From the IMG/VR virus record IMGVR_UViG_3300045952_000066, positions 1 through 57,687 of that record: DNA of 57,687 nucleotides; one strand, written 5' to 3'. Shown one piece after another: positions 12,797 to 40,857 of this stretch (its first letter is position 1; each line of letters starts with the position of its first letter). Made by a program: the position numbers and the translations under genes. Below the pieces are notes generated by a model. The model saw only the letters and a program-made list of their open reading frames with translations, searched no databases and was not told where the DNA came from. The DNA is from a virus. Taxonomy: Duplodnaviria > Caudoviricetes.

Positions 12797-13201
12797 TTAG
12801 GGCGCCCGTGGCATCGCGGCCAGGAGTCGCGCCCACTCGACCTTGGCGCTTTCCTGGTGGCCGTCGAGCCACCTGACGAGAGACTCCACGCTATCGACCG
12901 TGCAGATCGCGAGTCGGTAGCCCAGGAAGATCTCCCGGTGCTTTGCTGCCTGCTCTATTGAGGCGCCCTCGCCAGGACGCTTCACCTCAAGCAGGAAGCC
13001 TGGATAGACGCAGTGGATCGCGCCGTAGTCGGGAGTGCCCTTCTCGACGCCTTTGATCCACCGCTTGCCATCGATGGTCTTGAAGGTCCCGGCGTGCAGC
13101 CGCGCAGGCCAGTAGGACCGGAGCCGCAACAGATCGAGGCACGCCTTCTCGATGTCGTTCTCGACCACTTTCACGCGCGGCGGTGTGAGCCGGAAGGTCA
13201 C
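12797..13201 (-). CDS. VRR-NUC domain nuclease
   Basis: GTPD..LLEVKRPG..SIEQ. Confidence 0.85.
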   Translation of the reverse strand: MTFRLTPPRVKVVENDIEKACLDLLRLRSYWPARLHAGTFKTIDGKRWIKGVEKGTPDYGAIHCVYPGFLLEVKRPGEGASIEQAAKHREIFLGYRLAICTVDSVESLVRWLDGHQESAKVEWARLLAAMPRAP

Positions 13202-14166: not shown

Positions 14167-14366
14167 CAGAGGCCGTTCCTCTCCTCCGCTGCATCGCGGA
14201 TCTCGATGCCCTGCCGGTCGCAGAACTGGGCGAGCTCCGCCCACTCCTCGCCGTTGAAGTCGAAGACGCCGACCACATGCCATCGGTCGCCGCGCTTCAG
14301 CTTCAGACGGCCATGCACCGACTGGTCCTCGCGGTAGCGGACAACGAATCTGGCCTCGACGCTCAT
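14166..14366 (-). CDS. Hypothetical protein
   Basis: Coupled ORF. Confidence 0.65.
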   Translation of the reverse strand: MSVEARFVVRYREDQSVHGRLKLKRGDRWHVVGVFDFNGEEWAELAQFCDRQGIEIRDAAEERNGL

Positions 14367-14488
14367 GGGCGTCTCCTGAAGAGCCGGAAGCGCACGAACC
14401 GGATGACGGCGACTGAGATGGCCGCGCCGATGAACACCCAGATCGCAACGTCGAGCACGATGGCGATGCTGGCGAGGTCTTCACGCAT
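14363..14488 (-). CDS. Small single-TM protein with basic tail
   Basis: MREDLASIAIVLDVAIWVFIGAAISVAVIRFVRFRLFRRRP. Confidence 0.65.
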   Translation of the reverse strand: MREDLASIAIVLDVAIWVFIGAAISVAVIRFVRFRLFRRRP

Positions 14489-26941: not shown

Positions 26942-27001
26942 CGTTCGTCCCTCCCCCCCCCATCGACCGGGGCCTTGCGGCCCCGGCGCTATTGGTGTCC
27001 T

Positions 27002-27424
27002 TCAGAAGAGCTTGTTGACGATGCTCTCGACGGCAGTCTGCAAGCCAGCATCGCTGACGCCGGTCCCGTCGATCTGCACGGCAGGCGTCATCACCACGGC
27101 TGGCTGAAGCTCCGTGGCTTCCATGTCTGGCTGCTTCATGGTCGCATAGGCCCATGTCGTGCGCGTCTTGTGCGCGGCGGTCGTGATCGGCTCGTTGAGG
27201 ATGTAGTCGGCATATTTCAGGCAGGCCACCTTGATCCGGCCCCGGAAGATCGAGTCCGTCATGAGCATGGCGCTCTGCTCATACGTCAGAACGTCCTGCG
27301 GCGTCGGCGTCGGCGGCGTCGTTGTCGGCGTGGTCGGCGGCGTGGTTGGCGGCGTTGTCGGTGTCATCGGTTTCTCTCCTTTGAAAAGTCTCAGTATCGC
27401 GATCACAAAACTCTTGAGGACCAT
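27002..27424 (-). CDS. Hypothetical virion-module protein (alternative start 27367)
   Basis: PT-rich N-terminus; FRGRIKVA..SDAGLQTAVES. Confidence 0.7.
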   Translation of the reverse strand: MVLKSFVIAILRLFKGEKPMTPTTPPTTPPTTPTTTPPTPTPQDVLTYEQSAMLMTDSIFRGRIKVACLKYADYILNEPITTAAHKTRTTWAYATMKQPDMEATELQPAVVMTPAVQIDGTGVSDAGLQTAVESIVNKLF

Positions 27425-27433
27425 TCCTCCTCC

Positions 27434-28201
27434 TCAGTAGCGCGGCCTTCGCACGCGCTCCCACAGATGCTCTGGCGGCGTCCCGACGCCGCGACTCGCG
27501 ACCCTCACCTTGGAAGATCCGGAGCCGACGAAGCGCAACGACGCCGATCCCGAGGAGGCCACCATCACATGACTGCGGCCCTCGTCCCAGATGAAGATCA
27601 ACTCCGCGAGGCCGGTGGACGCCACCCGCACTTTGCTCTCGCCCAGAGCGAGGATCGCCTGCGGCGTGTACGTGCCTGCGCCGCCGGATGCGATGCGGAC
27701 GGCTGACGCGCCGGTCCCGATGAAGGCCATCGCGCCCGCGCCGCCGGATGCGACCAGGACGGTCGATGCGCCGGTCCCGCTGAAGACCAGGAAGCCCGCG
27801 CCGACCGACGCAGTGCCAATCGAGCTTGCGCCGTCGCCCGTGCGCGGGAGCGGAGTGTACTCGCCTGCGCCACCGGAGCCGACAGAGATCATACTGTCGC
27901 CCCAGCCGAAGCGTGGAGCGTAGTTGATCCCCTCGCCGGTCGATCCGACGAAGACGGTGGAGAGGCCCGCCCCACTGCCAAGGTCCATCTCCCCGGCGCC
28001 GGATGAGCCGACGAGAACGGTAGCGGTCCCGATTCCGATCAGGCCAATGTCAGGACCGAAGCCGCCCTCTCCGAAGCCGCCCTCTCCGTATACGGCTTCC
28101 ATGAAGATGATCGTGAGCAGATCTTCCTGGCTGAGAAATTGGCCGACGCCGCTCTCCGCGACCAGGACACCGGACGATCCTGCTCCAACGACATCCGCCA
28201 T
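27434..28201 (-). CDS. Gly/Ser-rich beta-repeat protein
   Basis: About nine GxGxSxVxVxSxGxG repeats. Confidence 0.75.
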   Translation of the reverse strand: MADVVGAGSSGVLVAESGVGQFLSQEDLLTIIFMEAVYGEGGFGEGGFGPDIGLIGIGTATVLVGSSGAGEMDLGSGAGLSTVFVGSTGEGINYAPRFGWGDSMISVGSGGAGEYTPLPRTGDGASSIGTASVGAGFLVFSGTGASTVLVASGGAGAMAFIGTGASAVRIASGGAGTYTPQAILALGESKVRVASTGLAELIFIWDEGRSHVMVASSGSASLRFVGSGSSKVRVASRGVGTPPEHLWERVRRPRY

Positions 28202-28210
28202 CGTGATCCT

Positions 28211-29122
28211 CTATTTGCCTGTCACTACTGCGTCCTTGGCTTTTTGCAGAGCCGCTTCCGCCGCCGCGAGATTCGCCCGCGCCTTCTGCACGTCTGGCGT
28301 GGGGTAAGCGTCGAGAACCGGCGCCAGCGTCCGCTGAATGTTCGCGGCGAAGTAGCTCCACCAGTCGGGATACTTGTAGAGCGGCTTCCCGGTGGCGTCG
28401 AGGCCCGCCCGCTCGTACTCCACCATGAATTTCTGGATCGACGCGATCACCTCTGCCGGGACCGTGAAGCACCGTTGCGTCTTGTTGATCTCCGCGCAGA
28501 CCTTTGTCGGCGTCGGCGGCGGGTACGGCCCCTGCTCCGACTGGATGGTGATATTGATGATCGCCTGCGCCTTCTGCCCGCCGCTATCGCCCACCACTAC
28601 CGATACCGGCGCGTTGGTGACCGGCGCAGTGGGAGTCCCGCTGATCACTTCGCCGTTGAGCGCCAGTCCTGGGGGCATGACTTGATTGGCGACTAGCGCC
28701 CACGTATACGGCTCCGCGCCGCCCGCTGCGGTGAGCGTCAGCATGAACGCTTTCCCGACCATCCCCGGCATCGGATTGCGTGGCGCGGTGACCGTGAGGA
28801 CTTCCTGTATCCGCAACGAGACGCGGATCTGCCCGGTGCGCTGCGGATTGCTGGAGTCGGTGACCATCGGAAAGACATCCATCATGAAGCTCTGAGTCGG
28901 CGTGCCGGATATTGTCGCCACGCCGTTCACCGTGTTCCCCAGCGCGAGGCCGGAAGGCAATCCCGATACGGTCCACTTGTGAGGCGCAGTGCCGTCTTTC
29001 ACCCACAACTCGATCTTCATGGGCATCCCGACGACGCCGATTGGATTGCCCGTGAACCCGGCATTGTTCAGCGGTGTCTGCGCGTAAGCGGCGACTGCCG
29101 CAAAGACGAGCCATAGTTTCAT
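28211..29122 (-). CDS. Signal peptide, two putative Ig domains and a chaperone-like C-terminal domain
   Basis: MKLWLVFAAVAAYA|Q; GLPSGLAL..ISGTPT twice; C-terminus homologous to 32327..32716. Confidence 0.8.
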   Translation of the reverse strand: MKLWLVFAAVAAYAQTPLNNAGFTGNPIGVVGMPMKIELWVKDGTAPHKWTVSGLPSGLALGNTVNGVATISGTPTQSFMMDVFPMVTDSSNPQRTGQIRVSLRIQEVLTVTAPRNPMPGMVGKAFMLTLTAAGGAEPYTWALVANQVMPPGLALNGEVISGTPTAPVTNAPVSVVVGDSGGQKAQAIINITIQSEQGPYPPPTPTKVCAEINKTQRCFTVPAEVIASIQKFMVEYERAGLDATGKPLYKYPDWWSYFAANIQRTLAPVLDAYPTPDVQKARANLAAAEAALQKAKDAVVTGK

Positions 29123-29130
29123 AGAGCCTC

Positions 29131-30273
29131 TCAGTAATTCGTTACTTGGGGCCGACTGCGGAGGTAGCCGGTCTGGTAGTATGTCCAACCGGCTGCAAGC
29201 CCTCCGTTATCGACCACGTACACGTAGCCGTGCAATGGCGGTCTGCTCAGTTGGAACGGCTTGAACATGATCCGCACCACAGCGGTCACGTCGGTGCCCG
29301 ACTTGGAGAAGTAGCTGCTTGGCGTGTCCACCTGACAGGTGATGTTCTGCGGGTAATTGCCCGTTCCCATCGTGATCGCTCCCTGCCAGCCGCCGCCGTC
29401 GCCCGACAGGTGGAAGTAGTTGCCGTTGGGGTACATCAGGAAGTAGCAGGCTTGGTTGGCGTCGACGCCGTTGTTGATCAGGATGTGCATGTAGTTGATG
29501 TTTCCGTAGCCGTCCGCGTCCCTGACCGTGGCGCTGACGTAGAACCAAGTGTTATAGGCGACGTTGGCCGGGATGCCGCTCAGACCGATGGTCTGCGGCG
29601 TATTGTTCACGGTGTAGGTGATCTCGACCCTGCCAGCAATCCCGGCATTTCCTCCGCTCTCGCCGTTTCCACCCTGACATCCGCCGCCTGGAGCAGCACA
29701 TGCAGGGTTAAACCCGCTACCCTGGTTGTTCGAGCCGCCGCCGCTGCCGCCCCAGCCGCCGCAACCATCGCCCCAGTCGCATGTTTCTCCCTGGTTGCCT
29801 TGCTGGCCGCTTTGCCTGAAGTCGCCGGTGCTGGTGTTATACGAGCCGCCGCCGCCGCCGCCGCCCGAACCCCAGCCGCCCTCGTTCTGATGGTTGAACC
29901 ACCCGCCGCCGCCGCCGTACCCACCGTCCGCTACGCAGTGCGATCCAAAAGAAGAGTCGCCGGAGTCACCGCCGTTTGATCTTGGAGATCCTGCGCCGCC
30001 GCCGCCGCCGACCGTGACTGTGATTTGCTGGCCCGCCGATACTGCGATGCTGTTCCTGACAGCGTATGCGCCGCCGCCTCCCCCTCCTCCGCCGCCGCAC
30101 CGCTGGCTCTCGCAGAACCCGCCGCCGCCGCCGCCGCCCGCGCCCCAGCATTTCGCCTGGATGGCCGTCACGCCGGAAGGCACGGTGAAGGTCGTTGAAC
30201 CCGGTGTATTCCACGTCTGCGTCACGCCGAAGGCCGACGCCGCGAATAGAAGAAGCGTTGTCAGTAGTCTCAT
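29131..30273 (-). CDS. Signal peptide, glycine-rich domain and Acidobacteria-type surface domain
   Basis: MRLLTTLLLFAASAFG|; FTVPSGVT..CWGAGGGG; DADG..ILINN..ACY..CQVD. Confidence 0.8.
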   Translation of the reverse strand: MRLLTTLLLFAASAFGVTQTWNTPGSTTFTVPSGVTAIQAKCWGAGGGGGGGFCESQRCGGGGGGGGGAYAVRNSIAVSAGQQITVTVGGGGGAGSPRSNGGDSGDSSFGSHCVADGGYGGGGGWFNHQNEGGWGSGGGGGGGSYNTSTGDFRQSGQQGNQGETCDWGDGCGGWGGSGGGSNNQGSGFNPACAAPGGGCQGGNGESGGNAGIAGRVEITYTVNNTPQTIGLSGIPANVAYNTWFYVSATVRDADGYGNINYMHILINNGVDANQACYFLMYPNGNYFHLSGDGGGWQGAITMGTGNYPQNITCQVDTPSSYFSKSGTDVTAVVRIMFKPFQLSRPPLHGYVYVVDNGGLAAGWTYYQTGYLRSRPQVTNY

Positions 30274-30278
30274 GCTGG

Positions 30279-31898
30279 TCACCAGTTTGTGTAGTAGCGG
30301 TAGCCGATCCGGATGGACTTGGCAGAGCCGCTGATCACGTAGGCTCCGACGAACATCCCGACCGGGATGACGTGGTAGCCGTTGTTGATGTTTGTGGACT
30401 GCGACCCATTGCACGCGAGGTTGCCGTTGATGAAGTCGCCGCCGTCGTTGCGCCGCAGATTGATCGTGGCGTCGTTGGTGTCCGACCAGCACTGCACCTG
30501 ATCGATGACGCTCTGCACGTTCTGCGGCTGGAAGACGCCCCAGACGACCACGCCGGTCTGGAGCGCGAGGTACGGATCGTTGAGAGCGAACGAGCCGGTC
30601 CAGCGGCGCACGTTCACGACCTGTCGGGCCGCGTTGTCGAGACTGCCGTAGCGATAGAATCCATCGCCACTGTTCACAACAAAGCTGGAGATAGCCGGGT
30701 TCTCGATACCGTTGCTGGAGTTGAAGTAGCCACCCATGATGTAGCCGTTGCCCTGCGTGCGGACAACCTTGTTGGCTTCATTGTTGGTGCCACCGTGAAC
30801 GACCAGCCCACCCACGGCATTCGCGTTGTCGGCGGTATCCACCAGCCCGTTCTGGCCCGCATCGCAGGACGTTGCCCAGGAACCGGAGCAGCCGACCTCG
30901 AACATGCGGACACCCGCTCCCGTCGCGTTGTTGAGAAACGCAGGCTTCCCGGTCACGCCGGTATACGGCACGCTTCCCGCGCTCCCCGCGCTCCCTGATG
31001 CGTTGCCGGTGATGTGAATGGTATAGGTCCCGGTGAGAGCATCAGCGGCGCCCTGAACGTGTGAACTGGCGTGCGCGGACGGAGCGAACGTCGCGGGCTT
31101 GCCGCTGACGCCGGTCCACGGCACTGCGGTCGCGTTGGTGGCATTGGTCGCGTTGGTGGCGGTCGTGGCCGTCGCCGCGTTGCCGCTGATCCCGATGCTG
31201 TACGTGCCGCTGGTGATCTTGCTGGAGTAGTCGCCCACCGTCGAGAGGTCCGCGACCGGGTGTGTGTGCGCGGATGGCGTGAAGGTCGATGGGACGCCGC
31301 TCAGTTTTCCCCACGCGAGGCCGGTGATCCATGCGGGATTGTTGTAGCTTCCCGTCGTGTAGACGCCGTTGGTGACGGTGTCCGCGTTGCCAGCGAGAGG
31401 CCCGCTGAATCCCGTAGCCGTGATGGTCCCGGCGAACACGTTGCTCCGCGTCAGGAGCGCCGTGTTCAGAAAGCCCGCGCCCAGCCCGTTCTGGATCGCC
31501 TTCACTTCAGCGGCTAGCTGGTTGTGATAGTTCTCGTCGTTGAGGATCTGGACCGGCGTCCCGTTGGCGTGCGCCCGCGCCGGTCCATGTATGCCGCGCC
31601 CGCCCGCGCAGACGGTGACCGTAGCCCCCGACGCAGAGCAGATCTTGATCACCTCTGCGGTCGTGCCGCTCCCCAGCGTGTAGTACGCGGGAGCGCAGAA
31701 CGTGACGCCGCTGGCGACGGAGAACGACAGGACCGAATCGTTGATCCCTCCGTCCAGCGTCGAGCGGGCGCTATTGCACGCCACGCCCAGCGTGGTGTCG
31801 GTGGCGACGGACGCAGGGAACGCCGCCGGTCGCGGGTTCCCGTTCTGTTGCGCGAGGACGATGCACGCGCAGAGAAACACGGAGAGGAGTTGTCGCAT
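30279..31898 (-). CDS. Signal-peptide-bearing tail-fibre-like protein
   Basis: MRQLLSVFLCACIVLA|Q; VPSTFTPSAHTH, GNAATATTATNA, NKVVRTQGNGYI. Confidence 0.8.
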   Translation of the reverse strand: MRQLLSVFLCACIVLAQQNGNPRPAAFPASVATDTTLGVACNSARSTLDGGINDSVLSFSVASGVTFCAPAYYTLGSGTTAEVIKICSASGATVTVCAGGRGIHGPARAHANGTPVQILNDENYHNQLAAEVKAIQNGLGAGFLNTALLTRSNVFAGTITATGFSGPLAGNADTVTNGVYTTGSYNNPAWITGLAWGKLSGVPSTFTPSAHTHPVADLSTVGDYSSKITSGTYSIGISGNAATATTATNATNATNATAVPWTGVSGKPATFAPSAHASSHVQGAADALTGTYTIHITGNASGSAGSAGSVPYTGVTGKPAFLNNATGAGVRMFEVGCSGSWATSCDAGQNGLVDTADNANAVGGLVVHGGTNNEANKVVRTQGNGYIMGGYFNSSNGIENPAISSFVVNSGDGFYRYGSLDNAARQVVNVRRWTGSFALNDPYLALQTGVVVWGVFQPQNVQSVIDQVQCWSDTNDATINLRRNDGGDFINGNLACNGSQSTNINNGYHVIPVGMFVGAYVISGSAKSIRIGYRYYTNW

Positions 31899-32308
31899 TA
31901 CTGGCCTGCTTTCAGAACCGTGAACGAATAGCTGTTGATGGACACCTTCGCATTGACCTGGATGTCGATGCTATTCAGATTGAGGTTGAAGCCCGCGCCG
32001 ACGCCGACCGTTCCATCGAAGACCGGGGCGCCGCCCGACGTGAAGAACCGACACCAGGATGCCTGCCCGGTCGCCACCGCAGTGCCGTCCGCGATTGGGT
32101 TGGCGGCGGCTACACCTCCAGCGGCGCCGCCGAATGCGGGATTCCCAAGAGCGTGGCTGGAGAGCAGGACCTGGCCGGTGATTGCAGTGTCGCCGTTCGC
32201 CGGTTTCGCGCCGTCGTAGATCTTGAGCGTGCCGCCGTTGCATTGCGTCAGACCGGCGTTCGCCATCGCGTTCGCCATCGCATCGGTGATTTGAGTGTCG
32301 AGTGCCAT
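31898..32308 (-). CDS. Conserved phage virion protein
   Basis: LKIYDGAKPA..TGQASWCRF..FDGTVG. Confidence 0.75.
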   Translation of the reverse strand: MALDTQITDAMANAMANAGLTQCNGGTLKIYDGAKPANGDTAITGQVLLSSHALGNPAFGGAAGGVAAANPIADGTAVATGQASWCRFFTSGGAPVFDGTVGVGAGFNLNLNSIDIQVNAKVSINSYSFTVLKAGQ

Positions 32309-32326
32309 GTTGGTTCTCCTGTTTGA

Positions 32327-32716
32327 TTAGCCCTGCGGTGTCACCGGCAATTGCGGTGGCGGCGTCGGAGCCGGTGGCGTCGGAGCCGGTGGCGTCGGAG
32401 CCGGTGGCGTCTGGGCTGGCGGCGCCGGGGCCGGTGGAGTTCCGCCGACGCGCTTTGGCCGCGCCATGTCTTTAATCTCTTTCTCGATCTTCTGCGCCGC
32501 TTCCAACTGTGCGCGGAGTGATGGCGGCGGGTACTGCTTTACGACTTGGTGAATGGTTTGGTGAACGGCGTCTTCGATAAAGGCGTCTGGTGTCGGATAG
32601 AGCTTGGTCATGACTTGAGCGCCGGTAACCGGATCGTTGGTGACGCGGATCTGCGTGGCGATGTACTGCTCGATGCTCCAGACCACGTCCTGCGGAATGT
32701 CTAGGACGATCTGCAT
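32327..32716 (-). CDS. Putative fibre assembly chaperone with Pro-rich tail
   Basis: GAGGAG RBS; follows the fibre gene; TPPAP repeats. Confidence 0.7.
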   Translation of the reverse strand: MQIVLDIPQDVVWSIEQYIATQIRVTNDPVTGAQVMTKLYPTPDAFIEDAVHQTIHQVVKQYPPPSLRAQLEAAQKIEKEIKDMARPKRVGGTPPAPAPPAQTPPAPTPPAPTPPAPTPPPQLPVTPQG

Positions 32717-35700
32717 TGGGTGTCTCCTCTCCTTCTCGCTCTCGTAGCGGGATCTCTCCGATATAGGTCACGATGCCGTTGGTGAATGTGACTGACCGGC
32801 CATCCCTGTCGATAATCGTGCCGCTCTTGCCGTCCGCTACCTGGAAGATGCCGAACGATTGCGCTCGACACATGGCAGTCGAGGTCGTTTGAACGAACTG
32901 AACGCTGGTGTACTCCTGCGCGTAGCTTCCCGCTGGCTGGTAGTTGCCCTTCGGCTGGTAGAGACTGTCCAGTTCCGTGCCGTTGCGGTAGATGTAGCGG
33001 AAGTAGCCGTCGCGGCTGCTATTGATGGTTTCGGTGTTCTGAATTTTGACCGACAGAAAGTTGGCATTCAAGCTGGAATCGACCATCGTGTACGCGCCCA
33101 GCTTGTAGGTGGCAAAAGGACCGCTACCGTATCCGCTATTGGAGGTGACCCAGCCAGCCAAGGTTTCAAAGTTCCCGCCGCCCGTCAACTGGACGCCCCC
33201 GGTGCCGGTGAACTTCACCGGGGTCGCGCCGGTCACGGTCATTTCTCCCACGGTCAGCTTGCTGAAGTTGAGCGATTTGATTTGCGTGTCGGTGAGACTG
33301 TCGCCTTTCACCTTCACGGTTGGTCCGCGCTCCAGTGTAGTTTCGTCGGAAGAGAAGATGATTTGGTTGCCGCTGGTAGTCAACCCTGCGCCCTGATCGA
33401 CGCGGATGCTGGTCGTTCCGGTGATCCCGATGCCGATTGTGATGGTGGCTCCATTGGCTCCGACAGTCAGCGGCCCGCCCGTGTCTGGCTTAAAGCGGAT
33501 GGCGCCGGTGTCCACGGCAATGCCGTTGCCACTTCCAACGACGATGCCGTTGGAGTCGAGTCCCATACCGGAGACGCCGCCCAGCCTAATCTTGATCCTG
33601 GTGGAATCGCCTGACGGATACATGATCCCGTCACTGAGGCCGACCGCCACGCCGCTGGCGTCCACGCCCAGCCCGCCGTTGACCTTGACATCGATGTCAC
33701 CGTTGTAGAGTACAGTGCCTCTGGCGACACGCACGGCAATGCCGTCCGATTGAACCTTTGTCCCGGCGTTCGCCCCGATCTTGACCTGGATACCCTCAGT
33801 TGCGCCACGCTTGATGCCAGCCGCGCCATCCACCTTGACCTGGATGGCTCCGTCCGCGCCGAACTCCGTGCCGCTGGCTACTCCGGTGAGAGGCTCCAGC
33901 GCGTCGGTGCCGCTGACGAACACTTGCCCGCGCCCGATCTTGATCGCGCCTTTCTTGTTGACATCGATCTCCATGCCGGGACCGGGCAAAAACTTGAGCG
34001 GCCCGCCGGTCTTGATGAGTCCATCGGAAGCGTTGACCTCGAGCAGTGGCCCCTTGAACGTCTGCCCCTCGCCAAGGTTGAGAGTTAGATCGCGCCCAGC
34101 GGCGGCTTGTCCTGCGCCGCGCCGCACGCGCAGATGGCCGCGCATCAGTCCGGACGCGCCACCGTCCGTATGGACATCGACACCCTCGCCCTCGTCGGTC
34201 TTGAGATCCAGGTTGCCGTTGGTGATCCGGTGCGGGCGATTGGGATCGAGCGGGATCGTGACGCCGGGAATCCTGGTGGACGGATTGAGGATCGGACCCT
34301 TGAGCAAGCTGTGATCGAGATCGAGCACCACGTCGAAGTACGGACGCTGGGCTGGCGTCGTCTGTCCGACTCCTGCGCTCCAGACGTTCTGCTGCGTCAG
34401 CGTGCCGCCGAATCCGTAGGGGTCGTAGCGCGAACCGATGTACTGCTTGAAGCGCACGATATTGTCGGGATTGAGCGTCGTGCCCAGAGGGTCCTGCGGC
34501 GTCGGCGCGAGATATTTATCCGGCACGTCCCACAGAAGGTCGTTCTCGATGTACACCCGGTTGGAGCGCGGGATGCGGTGGACGCTACTGTCGTCGTCAT
34601 CCGTGAACGCCATCTCTTCGGGATGCTGCCCGCCGCCGACGAACGTCGCCGGATTCCCCGGCGTCTGGTAGTGGCCGGTCTGGATCGTCCACCGCGCGAA
34701 GAAGAACTCGTCCTCATGCGTGAAGGGCAGGACGGAGTACAGGTGACCCCAGCCGTACTTCCCGGCCTTCGGCCCGTCGCCGTAGATGATCCAGTCGATG
34801 TAGGAGACGGCCACGCCCGCGCCCACGCTCCCGACCACGTCGTTGGTCGGTTCGGGCGGCGGATTGACGGTGAACCGGCTCGTCCGGATCGCGCCGGATC
34901 GGCTGGTGTCTTCGCCGTCGAGGAGGTTGCCGGGGGCCACCAGGACGGACCACTCCTGCGGGAAGTCGGTCGGCGGATAGACCGCCGTGTTCCAGTCGCC
35001 GCGCTCTCCCAAGTAGACCGTCGTGGCGCCAGCCGGGATGCTCACCGACTTCTGCCAGAGGTCGGCGCCGCCTTTGTTCAGCAGGAGCGTGACGTTCTGC
35101 GCCTGCGGGAAGTTCACGGTCACCGCGACGACCATCCGCAGAGCGCCGCCATCATCCTTCCAGCGTTCGCGGTAGCGCGGATCGCTCGTCGGGAGCGTGC
35201 TGGCATCGACCGCAGTTGCCGTCGCCGCCGGTCCACCGGGAATGGTCTGCGTCTTGCCGGGAAGCGTGATCTGGATGTCGTAGGGTTCGCTGGGAACGTC
35301 TGCTTCAGTGAAGCCGGTGAACCGGAGGTAGCAGTTCGCGATTGGTTGCGGCTGCAACTGGATGCGCCCGTCCACGATATGGAACGGGATCTCAGAGCCG
35401 GTCGCCGGGACCTCGTAGGTGCGGAGGATCGCCGTAGACGCGGGCGTCCCTGGATAGCGGAACTCGACATCGACGTGATGCAGTAGCGCGTAATCCGGAT
35501 GGAGCGTCGGCAGATGGATCGAGCCGTCGAAGACTGCGGCCACGCCACTGCCCCACGGTTCGCCGGTCGGCTGGTACACGTCAGCGGTGACCGGCGGCGG
35601 CTTCTGGATGCCGCCACCTGTCGGCGGCGAAGCTCCACCTTGCGCCACGATCACGCGGAGCTCGCACTGTTTGGTGGCGACGGCGGGATCTTCCCACGGC

Positions 35701-36869
35701 TTCAGGCCCGGTTGCGGCGCCACGCGATTGATCGCGTACACCTGGATGTCGAACCCGGCGCCGCCCTCTCCATAGGGACCGCCCAGATCCCCGAAGTGCT
35801 GGACGCCGTTGATGGGCAGTTCGTCCTTGAACGGATGCGGCGGGCCGAAGGGGAAAGCGAACGCGCCGTTGAAATCATAGAGGACGAGTTGGATGTACCA
35901 CGTATTGACGCCAAGCTGACCGGCAGAGCCGGGATACGCGCGAGTGGTGTCCACGCGGACGTATTCGAGATACCAGTCGTGACTGCCATCGGCCCATACC
36001 CGGTCGTAGGGGAACGTGCCGCCGACGCCGGGAGGGACTTTGACATCGGCGGGCGCGATCATGCCCGGTGACGGCGGCTGCACCTTGACCACGCTGAACG
36101 GCAGGCTGGTGACCGCTCCCTGCGTCGGCGCGACGGACGCATCGATGGTTCCGCGCTCTACGGTGATCGTCCACTGCTCGTCCTTGAGCGGCGTGAACAG
36201 ATTGGTATTGGCGCCCTCGCCGCCGATCCGGATCTGATCGCTCCGGTGCCAGCCGTGCCAGATGCGTTCCGGCATCACACTGTCGGCGGGATGGTTCGTC
36301 CAGACCGTGCAATAGAACGGCGCGTTCTGAGTGGTCACCGTGGCGGTCGCCGTCACCACGGAATGCACGTTGCGGTCTGGCTCGTCCTGCCAGCGGTCCA
36401 CCGTGTACTCGCGGCCCGTCACGGTCCCGATACTGAGCGCAGGGAGCGTCAGCGGGATGTCGAACGGATTCGGCCCGCTGATGTCTTCCTTGCTGAAGCT
36501 GGTGAACCGCAGGATGCAATCCTCGACGGCGTCCTCGCCCAGCAGAATGCGGTCGTCGGACAGGCCGGTGTAATCGATGAACGACGCGCCGCCCTCTGGC
36601 CGGAAGTAGCGCCCGATCAGCACAGAGACGCCGCGCTTCACGGTCGGCGGATAGACCAGTTCCACGTCAACGTGGTCCCAGTTGCCCAGCGCGACCGGCA
36701 GATCGATGCGCCCGTTGAAGACGGCGGCGGTGTCGTGGCTGGTGATCCGCCCGGTGATGCTGGTCAGGATGGCGGTAACGTCGGGCGGCTTGATGACGCC
36801 CGTCCCGGTCCCGCCCGTGGTGGAGCCTCGCTCGTAGATCCAGGTGCCGACTTTGGTCGATTCAGGCAT
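32472..36869 (-). CDS. Long tail fibre with duplicated N-terminal region and beta-spiral shaft
   Basis: Two related units of about 400 aa; about 17 GxG(L/I)xxxGxx(I/L)xV repeats; FTNGIVT near the C-terminus. Confidence 0.8.
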   Translation of the reverse strand: MPESTKVGTWIYERGSTTGGTGTGVIKPPDVTAILTSITGRITSHDTAAVFNGRIDLPVALGNWDHVDVELVYPPTVKRGVSVLIGRYFRPEGGASFIDYTGLSDDRILLGEDAVEDCILRFTSFSKEDISGPNPFDIPLTLPALSIGTVTGREYTVDRWQDEPDRNVHSVVTATATVTTQNAPFYCTVWTNHPADSVMPERIWHGWHRSDQIRIGGEGANTNLFTPLKDEQWTITVERGTIDASVAPTQGAVTSLPFSVVKVQPPSPGMIAPADVKVPPGVGGTFPYDRVWADGSHDWYLEYVRVDTTRAYPGSAGQLGVNTWYIQLVLYDFNGAFAFPFGPPHPFKDELPINGVQHFGDLGGPYGEGGAGFDIQVYAINRVAPQPGLKPWEDPAVATKQCELRVIVAQGGASPPTGGGIQKPPPVTADVYQPTGEPWGSGVAAVFDGSIHLPTLHPDYALLHHVDVEFRYPGTPASTAILRTYEVPATGSEIPFHIVDGRIQLQPQPIANCYLRFTGFTEADVPSEPYDIQITLPGKTQTIPGGPAATATAVDASTLPTSDPRYRERWKDDGGALRMVVAVTVNFPQAQNVTLLLNKGGADLWQKSVSIPAGATTVYLGERGDWNTAVYPPTDFPQEWSVLVAPGNLLDGEDTSRSGAIRTSRFTVNPPPEPTNDVVGSVGAGVAVSYIDWIIYGDGPKAGKYGWGHLYSVLPFTHEDEFFFARWTIQTGHYQTPGNPATFVGGGQHPEEMAFTDDDDSSVHRIPRSNRVYIENDLLWDVPDKYLAPTPQDPLGTTLNPDNIVRFKQYIGSRYDPYGFGGTLTQQNVWSAGVGQTTPAQRPYFDVVLDLDHSLLKGPILNPSTRIPGVTIPLDPNRPHRITNGNLDLKTDEGEGVDVHTDGGASGLMRGHLRVRRGAGQAAAGRDLTLNLGEGQTFKGPLLEVNASDGLIKTGGPLKFLPGPGMEIDVNKKGAIKIGRGQVFVSGTDALEPLTGVASGTEFGADGAIQVKVDGAAGIKRGATEGIQVKIGANAGTKVQSDGIAVRVARGTVLYNGDIDVKVNGGLGVDASGVAVGLSDGIMYPSGDSTRIKIRLGGVSGMGLDSNGIVVGSGNGIAVDTGAIRFKPDTGGPLTVGANGATITIGIGITGTTSIRVDQGAGLTTSGNQIIFSSDETTLERGPTVKVKGDSLTDTQIKSLNFSKLTVGEMTVTGATPVKFTGTGGVQLTGGGNFETLAGWVTSNSGYGSGPFATYKLGAYTMVDSSLNANFLSVKIQNTETINSSRDGYFRYIYRNGTELDSLYQPKGNYQPAGSYAQEYTSVQFVQTTSTAMCRAQSFGIFQVADGKSGTIIDRDGRSVTFTNGIVTYIGEIPLREREGEETPNADRPRHSAGRGLEHRAVHRHADPRHQRSGYRRSSHDQALSDTRRLYRRRRSPNHSPSRKAVPAAITPRTVGSGAEDRERD

Positions 36870-36873
36870 AGGA

Positions 36874-39800
36874 CTACCCTGCGGTCACTCTGATGGTTTC
36901 CTGAGGAGCCACCGTCACTGCCGCGTTGCCGTCGAAGAGAAGCTCGTCGGTCGCGCAGTGGACGATGAGGTTGTTAGGTCCATTATCGTTCGAGAAATAG
37001 AGCGTGCGGCCCTGATATACGGCCAGCGGCATCAACTGCACCTCCACGTCGTTGTCGGTCGTGTCGGCGCGGACAGTATGGTCGGTCGCGAACACTTCCC
37101 ACGGCTGGCCGGTGTCCGGATCGAATCGCGGCGGTCCCACCTCGCGCACGGTCGGCGGCTGGCCGTAGATGAAGATCTCGCGGTAGACGGCGAACTCTTC
37201 ATGCGAGATCCGGCCCGCGCGATCTACCAGGAAGCCGCCCACCAACGCGACCAGCGTGGCGAGGTTGTCGACGCGGACTCTCAACTCGAAAGCCTGCTTC
37301 GGTCGCGGGACCAGCAGTTCGCTGGTGACGCCCGCGTAGTCCCAGTCGTGCGCCTCGATGATGCCGATGGAGGTCGCGTCCGGTTGCGTCTCCCACGGTG
37401 GCTCCACGGTGACGCGGATGTTTGTGTTCGCGGTGATCGCGCGGACCTGACCGGCGCCCTTGCCGCGCAGGATGCGATACAGGCGCCCGATCTCCTCGTC
37501 GGGACGCAGGCCCTCCGTGTCGGGGAATTGCAGGCGCCCGACGCTGTTATTCCAGAGAGGGTCTTCGACCCAATCCGTGCCGGCGATTGCGCCAATGGAG
37601 CGCACGATGAGCACGTCGCCCTTTTCGACGGAGTCGGCTTGGTCGGCGCGGACGCAATCCGGCGTCACGGTGAACGTGCCGGTCGCCGGATCGAATGCGG
37701 TGATCTCGAAATTCCAGAGCGGCGCCGATCCATCGCTGAGATCCGCGAGAGCGGAGAGGTATCGCTTCGGCGGGCCGACCCAGTTGTCGGTGGCGCCGAT
37801 GAAGTTGTCGGCCTGGATCTTGTTCGGCGCGGTGACGCCGGTCACCAGGACGCCCGCGACTCCGGAGTGCCAGACGTGCTTCGCCGCGATCCTCACGCGC
37901 TCTGCGGCGGCGTCGGGCAGTTGCTGGGTCATGGGCGCGAGGAAGCCGGTGTACTCGTAGCTCACGGGCGGCGCCCCCAGCGTCTGGGCTTGCAGGGCGA
38001 TGCGCCGCCGGTCGGTCCCGATGTAGAGGTCCCAGCCCGCCCACGTTCCGCTGGGCGCCGGGAGCATCGAGATGGTGAGCTTCTGATCGGTCACGCCTTC
38101 CGGAATCCAGATCGCGTAGAGGTTCGACGGCGCGGATGGCGCGTTGGTCAGATCGAACTGCGTGACCGCGACGTACACCGTGACCGGCCCGGAGATATGC
38201 CCGCCCGCCGACCGGGCCACGCCCGTGATGCGCGGCTGCACGGGCGCGGCGAAGTGGTTGATCACCTCCTCGCCGCCGACCCAGATGGCCGGTGACCAGA
38301 CGCCGTCACGCTGAATGTTGTAGTCCTGCCAGAGGTCGAAGGTGCGCTCTCTGGGATCGGGATAGAGTGGATCGCCGGGGAACGGCGCGACGTGGTTCGG
38401 CATCCAGGCGAGGCCGCTGATGCTCTGCAACAGTTCCGGCGGGACCGGCTTGGCCGCAACGTCGGCTGGCTTGGGGCCGAAGGCGAGGTCGTACATCGAG
38501 TCGGTCGTGCATGTCGCCTGGATGTCGATGGAGAAGTCGGGATTCAGGACCCAGCCGGTCACCCGGCCCTCGCCGCGCCCGCCGGGGAGCCGGTCGTGAT
38601 CCATGCTGACGATGTCGCCGCACATGGTCCGCAGGGCCAGGAGGGTCGTCCGGAAGCGGAGGTCCCGCGCCTTGACCTGTTCCGCGAGGCCGACGCCGCC
38701 AAGCTCTTCGCGCAGGCGCGTGGTGATGACGCGGGCGCACTGGCTCTTGTTGCTGACGCCGACGAAGGCCATCGTGCTCTGGAGGTATTGCGGCGTGTCG
38801 GTCGCCTCGCCCAGCCAGAGCGCGTGATCGATGTCATAGATGGTGACGCTATTGAGGCCCCAGTCGAACTCATCGTCTCCGAACTCTCCGATGAGCCAAT
38901 TGAACCGGGGCACGACCGGCGAGGCTTCCAGGCTCCTGAACAGGATGTTCGCGCGGGTGAAGGCGTTGCCCGCGAGAACCGAAGAGTTGACGCGGATGCC
39001 GATCCAGAGCCGCCCGTGGACGAACGTGTAATAGCCGAGGCAACAGTTCAGAATTTCGGTGAGCCAGTCCTTCAGAGGCTTCCGCTCTTTCAGCACGCCA
39101 CGGAACGGAAACTGCCGCTCGTTGATGGCCGGTGTGATCAGGCTGGGCACGTACTTGTCGCAGATCTCTGCGGCGGCGATGCAGGACTCGACGTTGACGA
39201 AATCCTCCATCACCGACGCCGGGATGTCGTCGGCGCGGGATGGATCGACGCGCAGGCCGATTGCTCTGAGATAGACGTTGACCGCGACCCAGACGGGATT
39301 GGAGAGCGCGTTGACCCAGACGCGCGTTCCCGGCGCCGTCCAGGTCCAGCCCCCGATGCCTTCGGTCACCGTGACCGTCATGGCCCGGTCGGACACCGGG
39401 GCAAGCTGCAAGCCTGCCTCGTCGGTCCTGCGGATCTCCGCGAAGGCCACGCCTGCCGCGTAGCTGGCCTGCGGCGGGACCGTCCCTCCCCACGGCGCCT
39501 GATCGAGAGCGAAGAAGTCGGCGGTCGCCGCCGGATCGGTGCCCAGGATGCCGCGCCACCCGCCCCTCTTCTTTGGATCGTGCGGCGGCTGCTCATCGAG
39601 CTTGTGCGCGATCAGGTTCGATGAATAGGAGCCGATGGGGCCTTCGCCGACGATGCCCAACGCGCTGTAGAACTCGCTCTCGTCGCGGCCTGCGGCCACG
39701 TCGCAGACGACCTTCATCGCGATGTCGGTGTAGATCTCCTGAAGCGGACGCTGGTAGACGGACTCCTCCGCGACGGTGACGCTCTGGATGCGCGACCGCC

Positions 39801-40857
39801 CGACGCCCAAGCTCCCCAGAGCTATCGCCATCGGATTGATGCGGACATCCTGCGGCAATGCGACGACGCCGCCGAAGCTCTTGGGCACGCCTCGCGCCAC
39901 GCACGCCGCGAAGTCTTTCGGGCAGTCGGGGAACGACGACGTGCTGGGACAGTGCGGCCCCTTGTATTTCTTCCAGCACGTTCTGCTGATCTGGCGCCAC
40001 GGGTACGCGAGGGTCAACTCGAATAGCCCGTCCGACGCGGGCAGGATGAACGTGCCATCGCTGGTCAGCGTCCACGGTCGCGCGTAGCCCATCCAGAGGT
40101 CGATCAGATAGCCGGTGTTTATGTGGTAGAGCGCGAACGCGACATCGGCCCGGTAGAGGTTGGTCGCGTTCGCGTACTTGACGAACACGTCGTCCGCGTT
40201 GCCGAAGCTGAAGGTGGCCGAATCGCTGGCCTCGTTGAGCGTCTGCGAGATGCCGCCCCATTCGAGCAGACGCGGGAGAAACAGGTTGGCCGCGCCGTTG
40301 ATGGTGCATCGCTGGTTGCTGATCCGCAGGACATCGCTCGTCCCTCGCGGATAGATGGTGACCAGCGGGATGAACCGCTGCACCTGATCCTCCAGCGCGG
40401 GCGTGAGCACGTCGTCGGGGAATCGCGTCACGCGCTCCGCGACGTTGTAGTTCGGCGTCGAGGTCGGGACCTCGAGGAGAGTTAGCCCGCCGACCGACGC
40501 GAGATATGCGGTCAGATGCGCGAAGTCCAGGTTCGGATTCTCGTATCGCGCAGTTAGTAACTCATTGCCGCCAGGTCCGTGATAAGTGAATGGAAACTGC
40601 GCGTACTGTCCCTGCGCCTGCTGCCAGTGGCCCCTCAGGTTGTTGTAGTCGTCGCACGACAGATGATCGCGATGGATGCGGAACCGGCGCGTCCCGCTCC
40701 CCAGCAAGTAGCGTTGCTCAGTCTTGAGGCCCGGTTGATCGAAGACGTGCGTAACGACTTGCGGCTCGTAATCGACGCCGCTCCCATAGTCGATGCCGAG
40801 AGGAAACGCGCCGATCACCGGAGGATCTGGGATGGGAACCGCGCCGAGGTAGTCCAC
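36874..40857 (-). CDS. Fused tail hub/tip protein (Dit-like, gpL-like Cys cluster and J-like regions)
   Basis: CWKKYKGPHC..CPKDFAAC..FGG; SNPVWV..AAEICD. Confidence 0.8.
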   Translation of the reverse strand: MDYLGAVPIPDPPVIGAFPLGIDYGSGVDYEPQVVTHVFDQPGLKTEQRYLLGSGTRRFRIHRDHLSCDDYNNLRGHWQQAQGQYAQFPFTYHGPGGNELLTARYENPNLDFAHLTAYLASVGGLTLLEVPTSTPNYNVAERVTRFPDDVLTPALEDQVQRFIPLVTIYPRGTSDVLRISNQRCTINGAANLFLPRLLEWGGISQTLNEASDSATFSFGNADDVFVKYANATNLYRADVAFALYHINTGYLIDLWMGYARPWTLTSDGTFILPASDGLFELTLAYPWRQISRTCWKKYKGPHCPSTSSFPDCPKDFAACVARGVPKSFGGVVALPQDVRINPMAIALGSLGVGRSRIQSVTVAEESVYQRPLQEIYTDIAMKVVCDVAAGRDESEFYSALGIVGEGPIGSYSSNLIAHKLDEQPPHDPKKRGGWRGILGTDPAATADFFALDQAPWGGTVPPQASYAAGVAFAEIRRTDEAGLQLAPVSDRAMTVTVTEGIGGWTWTAPGTRVWVNALSNPVWVAVNVYLRAIGLRVDPSRADDIPASVMEDFVNVESCIAAAEICDKYVPSLITPAINERQFPFRGVLKERKPLKDWLTEILNCCLGYYTFVHGRLWIGIRVNSSVLAGNAFTRANILFRSLEASPVVPRFNWLIGEFGDDEFDWGLNSVTIYDIDHALWLGEATDTPQYLQSTMAFVGVSNKSQCARVITTRLREELGGVGLAEQVKARDLRFRTTLLALRTMCGDIVSMDHDRLPGGRGEGRVTGWVLNPDFSIDIQATCTTDSMYDLAFGPKPADVAAKPVPPELLQSISGLAWMPNHVAPFPGDPLYPDPRERTFDLWQDYNIQRDGVWSPAIWVGGEEVINHFAAPVQPRITGVARSAGGHISGPVTVYVAVTQFDLTNAPSAPSNLYAIWIPEGVTDQKLTISMLPAPSGTWAGWDLYIGTDRRRIALQAQTLGAPPVSYEYTGFLAPMTQQLPDAAAERVRIAAKHVWHSGVAGVLVTGVTAPNKIQADNFIGATDNWVGPPKRYLSALADLSDGSAPLWNFEITAFDPATGTFTVTPDCVRADQADSVEKGDVLIVRSIGAIAGTDWVEDPLWNNSVGRLQFPDTEGLRPDEEIGRLYRILRGKGAGQVRAITANTNIRVTVEPPWETQPDATSIGIIEAHDWDYAGVTSELLVPRPKQAFELRVRVDNLATLVALVGGFLVDRAGRISHEEFAVYREIFIYGQPPTVREVGPPRFDPDTGQPWEVFATDHTVRADTTDNDVEVQLMPLAVYQGRTLYFSNDNGPNNLIVHCATDELLFDGNAAVTVAPQETIRVTAG

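What the first reader, a model, noticed from the sequence alone, without database searches (positions are those of the whole stretch)
28211..31898. Exported fibre module: three consecutive signal-peptide genes inside the late tail operon
Seen: three tightly spaced genes begin with classic Sec signal peptides (MRQLLSVFLCACIVLA|Q, MRLLTTLLLFAASAFG|V, MKLWLVFAAVAAYA|Q). Their bodies are a tail-fibre-like protein (SAHTH, GNAATAT repeats), a glycine-rich fibre-like domain and tandem Ig domains. Known: tailed-phage virions assemble in the cytoplasm, so fibres normally lack signal peptides. Inference: this phage builds a second appendage in the periplasm or at the cell surface. It could be added to virions on exit, or displayed by infected cells as an adhesin or receptor decoy. 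This is my best candidate for an undescribed system.
Basis: partly seen in the sequence, partly recalled or inferred. Interest (0 to 1): 0.88.

Follow-up and report, generated by a model that had tools for sequence, protein, structure and literature searches.

The report
Phage tail fibres carrying export signals
The last three fibre-module genes of this temperate soil phage start with ordinary bacterial secretion signals and hold paired cysteines, so they are probably folded outside the cytoplasm, where tailed phages are not known to make tail parts.

Summary
Observation confirmed. Genes A (30279-31898), B (29131-30273) and C (28211-29122), all on the minus strand, are tightly coupled late-operon genes of a complete 57.7-kb lambda-like temperate siphophage. 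They are the only real gene starts in the genome with Sec-type signal peptides by my home-made rule; no trained predictor was on hand.

- The signal is kept in character in 8 of 8 homologues of A that have an N-terminus, and in the closest homologues of B and C.
- A is a true tail-fibre relative. Its N-terminal domain is the anchor-type domain of signal-less tailspikes in podovirus structural modules. Those tailspikes begin exactly where A's predicted mature end lies.
- Among the 150 best of 1385 representatives of that domain, 131 have a signal, almost all followed by Gln. A cysteine pair is present in 128 of these 131, but in only 3 of the 16 without a signal. A tree-based control had too few independent contrasts to prove this link.

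Best reading: Sec export, cleavage and disulfide folding in the periplasm. Whether the fibres then join virions at lysis or act on the cell envelope is open.

This scan has noted the same theme before on other phage DNA. My six literature searches found no description of it in print.

The parts
30279..31898 (-). Gene A, 539 aa: signal peptide + anchor-type N-domain + HxH fibre shaft + jelly-roll tip
31851..31898 (-). A signal peptide, residues 1-16, predicted cleavage VLA|QQ
   Evidence: conserved in 8 of 8 homologues that have an N-terminus
31464..31850 (-). A N-terminal domain (residues 17-145) with Cys41/68 and Cys87/97
   Evidence: AF2 pLDDT about 80 for residues 41-120. VIA Z 11.3 to 8jov_1 and Z 9 to phage tail-tip and baseplate chains. 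1385 representatives match the profile.
30624..31463 (-). A fibre shaft (residues 146-425) with PSAHTH / PSAHASSH motifs, GNAATAT repeats and the Cys337/345 pair
   Evidence: Low pLDDT as a monomer.
30282..30623 (-). A C-terminal jelly-roll domain (residues 426-539) with Cys470/496
   Evidence: pLDDT about 82. VIA Z 8.9 to Agrobacterium phage 7-7-1 tail fibre and Z 9.3 to a Pam1 capsid chain. This is a generic jelly-roll match.
29131..30273 (-). Gene B, 380 aa: signal peptide (1-16, SAFG|V) + Gly_rich_2 domain (23-220) + Ig-like C-domain (221-380, Cys276/313)
28211..29122 (-). Gene C, 303 aa: signal peptide (1-14, AYA|Q) + two He_PIG-type Ig repeats + PPPTP linker + helical C-domain (about 205-303, Cys209/218)
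32327..32716 (-). 129-aa gene without signal or cysteine; its first 83 residues are a paralogue of C's C-terminal domain
   Evidence: BLASTP 29% identity over 87 residues, E 2e-6; 0 Cys; strong GGAGAGGAG in front of its ATG

Best explanation
A, B and C are the distal fibre module of a temperate lambda-like siphophage, and they are made as Sec pre-proteins.

**Shown by sequence**
- Each begins with a short signal: M, then K/R, then 10-13 hydrophobic residues, then small-x-small.
- The three genes are translationally coupled to the late tail genes, with no promoter or terminator of their own.
- A is built like a receptor-binding tail fibre. It has an N-terminal anchor-type domain that is homologous to the N-terminus of signal-less tailspikes, a shaft with HxH motifs, and a jelly-roll tip.
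- B is a glycine-rich tip-type domain on an Ig-like foot.
- C is two Ig repeats on a helical domain. That domain also occurs, without signal or cysteines, in the 129-aa gene that follows the 1465-aa central fibre.

**Inferred**
- SecYEG exports the three proteins late in infection.
- Signal peptidase I cuts them. This leaves Gln at the new end of A and C, which may cyclise to pyroglutamate.
- The host Dsb system closes their 4, 5 and 1 cysteine pairs.
- The fibre trimerises in the periplasm.

**Most likely next step (inferred, about 0.4 given export)**
When the holin opens the inner membrane, cytoplasm-built tails meet the periplasmic fibres. A docks by its freed N-terminal domain as a side fibre, with B and C as tip or assembly partners. 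This would parallel the well-known ability of finished T4 fibres to join fibreless particles in mixed extracts (recalled textbook knowledge, no call).

The confidence given is for export plus extracytoplasmic folding, not for the docking step.
For: 1. **Only these three real gene starts pass.** 10 of 1754 candidate starts pass the signal rule; 4 of them are A, B (two starts) and C.
2. **The signal is conserved in kind.**
   - 8 of 8 A homologues with an N-terminus have it, at 38-53% overall identity.
   - B's homologue P0124 and C's homologue P0221 have it too.
   - In a second, baseplate-bearing phage (L006), 5 genes have it. These include an A homologue followed by a protein carrying B's C-domain.
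3. **Cysteines come in pairs.**
   - The mature proteins hold 8, 10 and 2 Cys.
   - Cys41/68 of A are both present in 5 homologues, both absent in 3, and never single.
   - Cys337/345 are both present in 5 and both lost with a deletion in 5.
   - C's domain has a pair, while its signal-less paralogue has no Cys.
4. **Family of A's N-domain.** 1385 representatives match at E <= 1e-3. Of the best 150:

   | Class | n | Cys87/97 both | none | one |
   |---|---|---|---|---|
   | Hydrophobic leader (signal) | 131 | 128 | 2 | 1 |
   | Domain starts at residues 1-9 (no signal) | 16 | 3 | 13 | 0 |
   | Domain internal | 3 | 3 | 0 | 0 |

. A small residue followed by Gln sits at the junction in 122 of the 131, plus 5 more by eye.
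5. **Signal-less relatives begin where A's mature end is predicted,** and they lie in podovirus-like structural modules with portal, major head protein, adaptor and Hc3.
6. **Fold of A.** The N-domain matches chains of solved phage tails: 8jov_1 at Z 11.3, and Chi tail tip and JBD30 baseplate at Z about 9. The C-domain is a jelly roll.
7. **No promoter-like or terminator-like site** on the minus strand between 27000 and 33500.
Against: - **No trained signal-peptide predictor and no experiment.** My rule is home-made.
- **The signal-cysteine link may reflect few events.** On a FastTree tree of the domain, with the Cys columns removed, each trait needs at least 9 changes. Only 2 independent contrasts lie on supported branches, and the sign test gives p = 1.
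- **Exceptions in the family.** 3 of 16 signal-less representatives keep the pair, although their starts look like truncated leaders by eye. 3 of 131 signal-bearing ones lack the full pair (2 have neither Cys, 1 has one).
- **Disulfides could also form after release from the cell.**
- **A virion part made in another compartment has no documented precedent.** The phage also has a large central fibre without a signal (1465 aa) that could suffice for infection.
- **No lysis genes were recognised** among the proteins I scanned, so the meeting step cannot be tied to a known holin here.
- **The identity of chain 1 of 8jov could not be established** from the papers I read.
Confidence: 0.7

Rival explanations
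1. The three proteins are exported but never join the virion. They act on the envelope of the infected or lysogenic cell. They could serve as adhesins, could mask or remodel a surface receptor to block superinfection or stop progeny sticking to debris, or could work like the Bdellovibrio MAT fibres.
For: - Export evidence is as in the best explanation.
- He_PIG Ig, IPT-type Ig and FG-GAP-like repeats behind signals (C here; two further L006 proteins) are typical of bacterial surface proteins. 41 of 120 C hits have signals, many of them lipoprotein-like.
- Lambda Lom and T5 Llp show that signal-bearing genes can sit among tail genes (recalled, no call).
- This reading avoids the two-compartment problem.
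Against: - A's N-domain is homologous to the N-terminus of signal-less tailspikes that sit inside podovirus structural modules. This points to a virion anchor.
- The genes have no promoter or terminator of their own and are translationally coupled to late genes, unlike typical morons.
- The phage has no signal-less copy of A's tip, so A cannot be a decoy for a receptor that the virion uses through the same domain.
- Sec alone reaches only the periplasm, and no outer-membrane secretion signal was seen.
Confidence: 0.25
2. The hydrophobic N-termini are not export signals. The proteins stay in the cytoplasm and assemble on the tail in the usual way. The leader would serve as an assembly or trimerisation aid, or be removed by a phage protease.
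For: - All studied tailed phages assemble tails in the cytoplasm (textbook knowledge).
- Matrishin et al. 2023 read predicted signals on Porphyromonas phage capsid proteins as segments cut by the prohead protease (passage read, PMC10367356).
- No predictor or experiment was available here.
Against: - The leaders keep the full n/h/c pattern with small-x-small and Gln at +1 in about 127 of 131 family representatives, while their sequence drifts.
- Signal-less relatives lack both the leader and, mostly, the cysteine pair.
- An uncleaved 16-residue hydrophobic extension would sit on the very end that is free in signal-less relatives.
- Three relatives carry what looks like a Tat signal instead. 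That is a second, unrelated export signal at the same place.
Confidence: 0.12
3. Annotation artefact: the true starts lie downstream, and the leaders are untranslated or belong to other frames.
For: The public collection holds a 263-aa form of C that starts at V41 (P0158).
Against: - The TAATG overlap, the 5-nt and 8-nt spacers and the GAGAGG site fit the upstream starts.
- Residues just after the leaders are conserved at protein level.
- Homologues from other contigs start with the same kind of leader.
- A start at V41 would truncate C's first Ig repeat.
Confidence: 0.03

Closest known systems
Podovirus and siphovirus tailspikes and tail fibres with a conserved N-terminal anchor domain and swapped distal modules (for example the signal-less beta-helix tailspike of viral contig L026)
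   Same: A's N-domain is homologous to theirs: profile E about 1e-16 to the group that includes L015 and L026. The layout is the same: anchor domain, short helix, then a variable shaft and tip. The position at the end of the tail module is the same, and the fold resembles domains in solved tail complexes.
   Different: A, B and C carry a Sec-type leader, Gln at +1 and cysteine pairs. The classical forms start directly with the domain and mostly lack the pair (13 of 16).
Bdellovibrio bacteriovorus MAT (mosaic adhesive trimer) fibres, Caulton et al. 2024, PMC10769870 (passages read)
   Same: [quoted passage not shown] The proteins work outside the cytoplasm.
   Different: MAT genes are chromosomal genes of a predator, not late genes of a phage. 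Many MATs end in an S74 chaperone-protease, which Pfam did not find in A. Homology of the two N-domains was not tested.
Signal-bearing accessory genes inside tail regions: lambda Lom and Bor, T5 Llp (recalled, no call); signal-peptide genes of Porphyromonas phages obeying the Bacteroidetes Q-rule (Matrishin et al. 2023, PMC10367356, passage read)
   Same: These are phage genes with Sec signals near tail genes. In the Porphyromonas case Gln is at +1, read there as adaptation to the host's secretion system.
   Different: They are small membrane proteins or proteins of unknown function, read as envelope modifiers, often with their own transcription signals. None is a tail-fibre homologue. Here the signal sits on a fibre with an anchor domain, inside the late operon.
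T4-type fibre pathway: fibres finished separately and added to fibreless particles, and gp38-type glycine-rich adhesins on fibre tips (recalled, no call)
   Same: It shows the idea that a finished fibre can join a finished particle. It also shows a glycine-rich domain protein encoded just after the fibre gene.
   Different: In T4 everything happens in the cytoplasm. B's relation to gp38 was not tested, because its model was too poor (pLDDT 37.8).

Membership tests
Sec/SPase I signal peptide | Positive n-region, hydrophobic h-region of 7-15 residues, small residues at -3/-1, no lipobox Cys at +1 | tested here: met
   A: MR + 13 hydrophobic residues + VLA|Q. B: MR + LLTTLLLFAAS + AFG|V. C: MK + LWLVFAAVA + AYA|Q. 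This used a home-made rule only.
Sec/SPase I signal peptide | Score by a trained predictor (SignalP, DeepTMHMM) and experimental cleavage | not testable with these tools
   No such predictor was offered and no proteomics exist for this uncultured phage.
Sec/SPase I signal peptide | Conserved in character, not in sequence, among homologues | tested here: met
   8 of 8 A homologues that have an N-terminus. 131 of the 150 best N-domain representatives by position and hydropathy; 117 of 150 by the strict rule.
Phage tail fibre / receptor-binding protein | N-terminal virion-anchor domain shared with known tail proteins | tested here: met
   Profile hits to signal-less tailspike N-termini in podovirus-like modules. 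VIA Z 11.3 to 8jov_1 and Z about 9 to Chi tail tip and JBD30 baseplate. That the domain actually anchors was not tested.
Phage tail fibre / receptor-binding protein | Fibrous shaft with tail-fibre repeats and a distal binding domain | tested here: met
   phrog_23676, phrog_14 and phrog_9574 hits on residues 193-344. PDB 9d93 'tail collar fibers' at E 2e-5. Jelly-roll tip.
Phage tail fibre / receptor-binding protein | Presence in the virion | not testable with these tools
   This needs virion proteomics or cryo-EM.
Pfam Gly_rich_2 (PF21722), gene B | Score above the gathering threshold | tested here: met
   44.5 bits against a cut-off of 24.3, residues 23-220.
Pfam He_PIG (PF05345), gene C | Score above the gathering threshold | tested here: inconclusive
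   The direct scan of C found no family at E <= 0.1. All 119 listed homologues other than the window's own fragment carry PF05345.
Bdellovibrio MAT fibres | Signal + conserved N-domain + trimeric fibre, often with a C-terminal S74 chaperone-protease | tested here: inconclusive
   The layout is alike. No S74 (PF13884) hit in A. N-domain homology and trimer state were not tested. A is not filed as a member.
Moron-type lysogenic-conversion gene (Lom/Bor-like) | Own promoter and terminator, independent of late transcription | tested here: not met
   No promoter-like or terminator-like site on the minus strand within 27000-33500. Starts overlap or abut the upstream stops.

The most novel reading that the evidence does not exclude
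Tailed-phage assembly can be split between two compartments. Heads and tails are built in the cytoplasm. The host-recognition fibres are sent through Sec, trimmed to a Gln (possibly pyroglutamate) end, disulfide-bonded by the host Dsb system in the periplasm, and bolted onto the tail only when the holin merges the compartments. The same anchor domain then exists in cytoplasmic, Sec-exported and perhaps Tat-exported versions across more than a thousand protein clusters of soil phages.
Probability: 0.28. Interest if true: 0.9.

Novelty: new variant of a known kind. Interest (0 to 1): 0.7.

Why it matters
- **Assembly.** If the fibres really mature outside the cytoplasm, the rule that tailed phages assemble entirely in the cytoplasm has a large natural exception in soil phages. 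In that case lysis is also an assembly step.
- **Practical consequences.**
  - Receptor-binding proteins of such phages would need periplasmic or oxidising expression to fold.
  - Host-range prediction and annotation pipelines that treat a signal peptide as evidence against a virion protein would misfile them. One example is the argument used for phage DGR targets in PMC6199706 (passage read).
- **Experimental handle.** The paired signal-less and signal-bearing versions of one anchor domain offer a natural experiment on how proteins adapt to the oxidising compartment.
- **If instead the proteins stay on the cell,** they are a new class of phage-encoded surface fibres made late in infection.

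Tried and rejected
- **Genomic context of homologues.** I used the search for related loci instead.
  - Viral contigs with alignment A1 gave only 3 repeat-level hits.
  - Genome contigs with A1 gave none.
  - Genome contigs with P0067 gave 7 Bacteroidales repeat-level hits, which I did not use.
  - Metagenome contigs gave L004-L006.
  - Viral contigs with P0007 gave none.
- **Cultured phages.** tblastn of A against 50,697 phage records gave one weak repeat-level hit, at 24.5% identity. No isolated relative is known.
- **The 136-aa upstream gene as a fibre adaptor.** Rejected on position, because its homologue lies beside the portal in L014.
- **Complex prediction** of A's C-domain (3 copies) with B's C-domain returned 'no answer' (median score 0.01, mark 0.32). 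This is no evidence either way.
- **AlphaFold2 of B** with a 4-row alignment gave pLDDT 37.8. The model was too poor to search, so the gp38 polyglycine idea stays untested.
- **ESM Atlas.**
  - B's C-domain gave only unnamed Acidobacteriota clusters and Ig-like or CARDB-like folds.
  - C's C-domain gave nothing usable.
- **PDB sequence searches** of B and C gave nothing significant.
- **Tree-based control** of the signal-cysteine link had too few supported contrasts.
- **Decoy idea** is weakened.
- **Q-rule paper** (PMC5837995) does not mention Acidobacteria, so I cannot say whether Gln at +1 is the host's habit.
- **DsbA hits in a Klebsiella screen** (PMC13412088) are read there as receptor effects and do not bear on this finding.
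- **Supplements of papers** were not opened. Supplementary Data 4 of PMC10367356 may list which Porphyromonas phage genes carry signals.

Full report
**What the window is**

The window is a whole 57,687-bp contig with no tRNA genes and about 63% G+C. Nearly all genes lie on the minus strand. PHROGs and Pfam identify the following:

| Coordinates | Gene product |
|---|---|
| 56848-57363 | small terminase |
| 54926-56851 | large terminase |
| 52483-54252 | portal |
| 51197-52483 | head protease |
| 50489-51181 | decoration protein |
| 49377-50393 | major head protein |
| 41540-45721 | 1393-aa tape measure |
| 36874-40857 | giant tail-tip protein, 1327 aa |
| 32472-36869 | giant tail-tip protein, 1465 aa |
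| 32327-32716 | 129-aa gene |
| 31898-32308 | 136-aa gene, phrog_3758 'virion structural protein' |
| 28211-31898 | the three genes of the finding (A, B, C) |
| 27434-28201 | 255-aa Gly/Ser-rich gene |
| 27002-27424 | 140-aa gene |

- A terminator-like site follows at 26947.
- Downstream lie RecE-like and RecT-like genes.
- A large serine recombinase sits at 18486-20171 (Resolvase and Recombinase domains).
- This is therefore a temperate, lambda-like siphophage, and the three genes close its late tail operon.

- A (30279-31898, 539 aa) starts at an ATG that shares a base with the stop of the upstream gene (TAATG).
- B (29131-30273, 380 aa) starts 5 nt after A's stop.
- C (28211-29122, 303 aa) starts 8 nt after B's stop, behind GAGAGG.
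- My von Heijne-type rule passed 10 of 1754 candidate starts in six frames. Four of the ten are A, B (ATG and an upstream GTG) and C. The other six are internal starts or lie in frames with no coding signal.
- No promoter-like or terminator-like site lies on the minus strand between 27000 and 33500. The genes are part of late transcription and are not morons.

**The leaders are conserved as leaders**

- In the alignment of A with nine relatives at 38-53% identity, all 8 sequences that have an N-terminus begin with M, K/R, a hydrophobic run and A/G|Q. The other two are fragments or have another start.
- B's only close relative beyond a deletion variant is P0124. It begins with a leader ending LTA|Q.
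- More distant hits match only the fibre repeats and mostly lack leaders: 25 of 119 A hits and 5 of 35 B hits pass the rule. Leaders are therefore not a general property of tail fibres.

**A second phage shows the same theme**

- L006 is part of a 57-kb metagenome contig and carries a baseplate wedge gene (phrog_6).
- It holds five leader-bearing genes among leaderless baseplate genes:
  - an IPT-type Ig protein;
  - an 809-aa FG-GAP-like repeat protein;
  - a 790-aa fibre that starts on the last base of the wedge gene;
  - a 647-aa A homologue;
  - directly after it, a 369-aa protein made of Ig repeats plus B's C-terminal domain.
- The A homologue matches A at 39% identity in the tip and 29% in the N-part. 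The 369-aa protein matches B's C-domain at 33%, E 2e-17.
- So the pairing of an A-type fibre with a protein that carries B's C-domain recurs in an otherwise different phage.

**Cysteines**

- The mature parts hold 8 (A), 10 (B) and 2 (C) cysteines, in local pairs.
- In A's alignment:
  - Cys41/68 are both present in 5 sequences and both absent in 3, never single;
  - Cys87/97 are present in 8 of 8;
  - Cys337/345 are both present in 5 and both lost with a deletion in 5;
  - Cys470 is present in 10 of 10 and Cys496 in 9 of 10. The odd one has a different tip.
- B's Cys276/313 are invariant in its 4-row alignment.
- C's helical C-domain has a pair.
- The first 83 residues of the leaderless 129-aa gene are a paralogue of that domain (29% identity, E 2e-6), and that gene has no cysteine at all.

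**What A is**

- AlphaFold2 with the 10-row alignment gave confident models only for residues 41-120 and 430-539 (pLDDT about 80). The shaft scored low, as expected for a monomer.
- The N-domain aligns to chains of solved phage tails:
  - 8jov chain 1, the portal-tail complex of podophage GP4: Z 11.3, 106 residues;
  - Chi tail tip: Z 9.2;
  - JBD30 baseplate: Z 8.8;
  - Mystique tail tube protein: Z 9.3.
- I could not establish which GP4 protein chain 1 is. The DEV paper speaks of a 93-aa Ig-like 'tail-fiber adapter' and of three fibre sets in GP4 (passages read, PMC11445570).
- The C-domain is a jelly roll with generic matches: Agrobacterium phage 7-7-1 tail fibre at Z 8.9, plus capsid and lectin-like domains.

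**The family test**

I built a profile of the mature N-domain, using A residues 17-145 plus the L006 and L005 homologues without leaders. I searched it against 1.84 billion representatives.

- It found 1385 proteins at E <= 1e-3 and 322 at E <= 1e-10.
- In the best 150, I classed each protein by where profile position 1 projects and by the hydropathy of what precedes it.

| Class | n | Cys87/97 both | none | one |
|---|---|---|---|---|
| Leader | 131 | 128 | 2 | 1 |
| Domain begins at residues 1-9 | 16 | 3 | 13 | 0 |
| Domain internal | 3 | 3 | 0 | 0 |

- Two of the three internal-domain proteins themselves begin with leaders.
- The strict rule passes 117 of the 150.
- The junction reads small residue then Gln in 122 of the 131 leader-bearing proteins. 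Five more, A among them, have A|Q a few residues further up by eye.
- The leaderless forms begin M-A-N-P-N-T-A-A-F-P or M-A-T-P-T-P-V-F-P. That is exactly where the leader-bearing forms are predicted to be cut (A|Q-N-P-x-T-A-x-F-P).
- By eye, the three leaderless forms that keep the pair look like starts called inside a leader.

**The leaderless forms are ordinary virion proteins**

- P0363 recovered 22 viral contigs.
- In L026 the 692-aa protein is a beta-helix tailspike. It lies between an adaptor-like gene and a phrog_578 'head closure Hc3' gene, downstream of the portal (phrog_156) and major head protein (phrog_283).
- Of 21 loci checked, 18 have no hydrophobic in-frame extension upstream.
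- Their G+C is 58-64%, like the window. The two forms therefore do not obviously belong to different host groups.

**Control for kinship**

- I built a FastTree tree of the domain with the four cysteine columns removed.
- The leader needs at least 9 changes and the pair at least 9.
- Only 2 independent contrasts lie on supported branches, and the sign test gives p = 1.
- The association is therefore strong in counts but not shown to be independent of descent.
- Independent support comes from the within-genome paralogue pair and from the pairwise gain and loss of Cys41/68.

**Reading**

- The simplest account of these facts is that the proteins are exported by Sec, cut by signal peptidase I and oxidised in the periplasm. 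The facts are:
  - a leader that keeps its n/h/c form while drifting in sequence;
  - Gln at +1 only in leader-bearing forms;
  - cysteine pairs that track the leader;
  - leaderless relatives that begin at the cut.
- Gln at +1 recalls the Bacteroidetes Q-rule, where it becomes pyroglutamate and stabilises exported proteins (listing and abstracts of PMC5837995 and PMC10653852).
- PMC5837995 does not mention Acidobacteria.
- The likely host phylum is Acidobacteriota. This rests only on two homologues named Bryobacteraceae and on Atlas look-alikes.
- Because A's N-domain is the anchor-type domain of classical tailspikes, I favour the view that A still ends up on the virion, presumably when the holin opens the inner membrane. 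B and C would be tip or assembly partners.
- C's helical domain may do for A what the 129-aa gene does for the central fibre.
- These last steps are inference. The alternative, that the proteins stay on the cell envelope, cannot be excluded.

**Comparison with print and with this scan**

- Six full-text searches found no paper that describes Sec signals on tail fibres or tailspikes.
- Benler et al. 2018 use the absence of signals as support for phage origin of DGR targets (passage read).
- Matrishin et al. 2023 report signal peptides with the Q-rule on Porphyromonas phage genes of unknown function and read them as envelope modifiers (passage read).
- Caulton et al. 2024 describe chromosomal MAT fibres with a signal and a conserved N-domain (passage read).
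- This scan has logged the same theme on other phages, mostly podoviruses and soil phages, with later checks pricing the two-compartment reading at 6-30%. I treat those entries as leads only.
- What this window adds:
  - a complete temperate siphophage in which only the distal module is affected;
  - a within-genome exported/cytoplasmic paralogue pair;
  - the finding that leaderless relatives begin at the predicted cut.

**Verdict**

Export is likely (0.7). The fate of the exported fibres is open. This is a new variant of a known kind, and the interest is high because simple experiments could settle it.

Noticed in passing
L030:9869-11869 (also L028 and L032, upstream of the matches listed): Three of 21 'signal-less' tailspike relatives have an in-frame N-terminal extension with a Tat-like T-R-R-S-[IL]-L motif followed by a hydrophobic run. 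In L030 this ATG overlaps the stop of the upstream gene. It may be a second kind of export signal on the same anchor domain.
   Followed up: partly
window 32472-32716 (minus strand): The 1465-aa central-fibre ORF runs 245 nt into the 129-aa gene in another frame, ending in about 95 Arg-rich residues that look non-coding. The 129-aa gene has its own strong GGAGAGGAG site. This could be an assembly indel, a real overlap or a frameshift site.
   Followed up: partly
L006:663-1280 and L006:1659-4088: Two further leader-bearing proteins sit between baseplate genes: an IPT-type Ig protein and an 809-aa FG-GAP-like repeat protein. They end in the same short tail (R-[RV]-V-I-L-V-N). B-type proteins end in a similar strand (L-I-V-T-x-Y/H). 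This may be a shared docking strand.
   Followed up: no
window 31898-32308 and L014:9935-10333: The 136-aa phrog_3758 gene lies after the tail-tip genes here, but directly after the portal gene in another viral contig (50% identity). It is a small virion gene that moves between head and tail modules.
   Followed up: partly
window, whole genome: None of the roughly 36 proteins that I scanned with PHROGs or Pfam hit an endolysin, holin or spanin family. The lysis system of this phage is unidentified.
   Followed up: partly
P0123 against window 29131-30273: The public collection holds a 305-aa variant of B with identical ends. It lacks 75 residues between two poly-Gly runs, as if by slippage or recombination between the GGC-rich repeats.
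   Followed up: no
window 13198-14484: A 428-aa early-region protein has a weak radical-SAM match (E 2e-4, below the Pfam cut-off).
   Followed up: no
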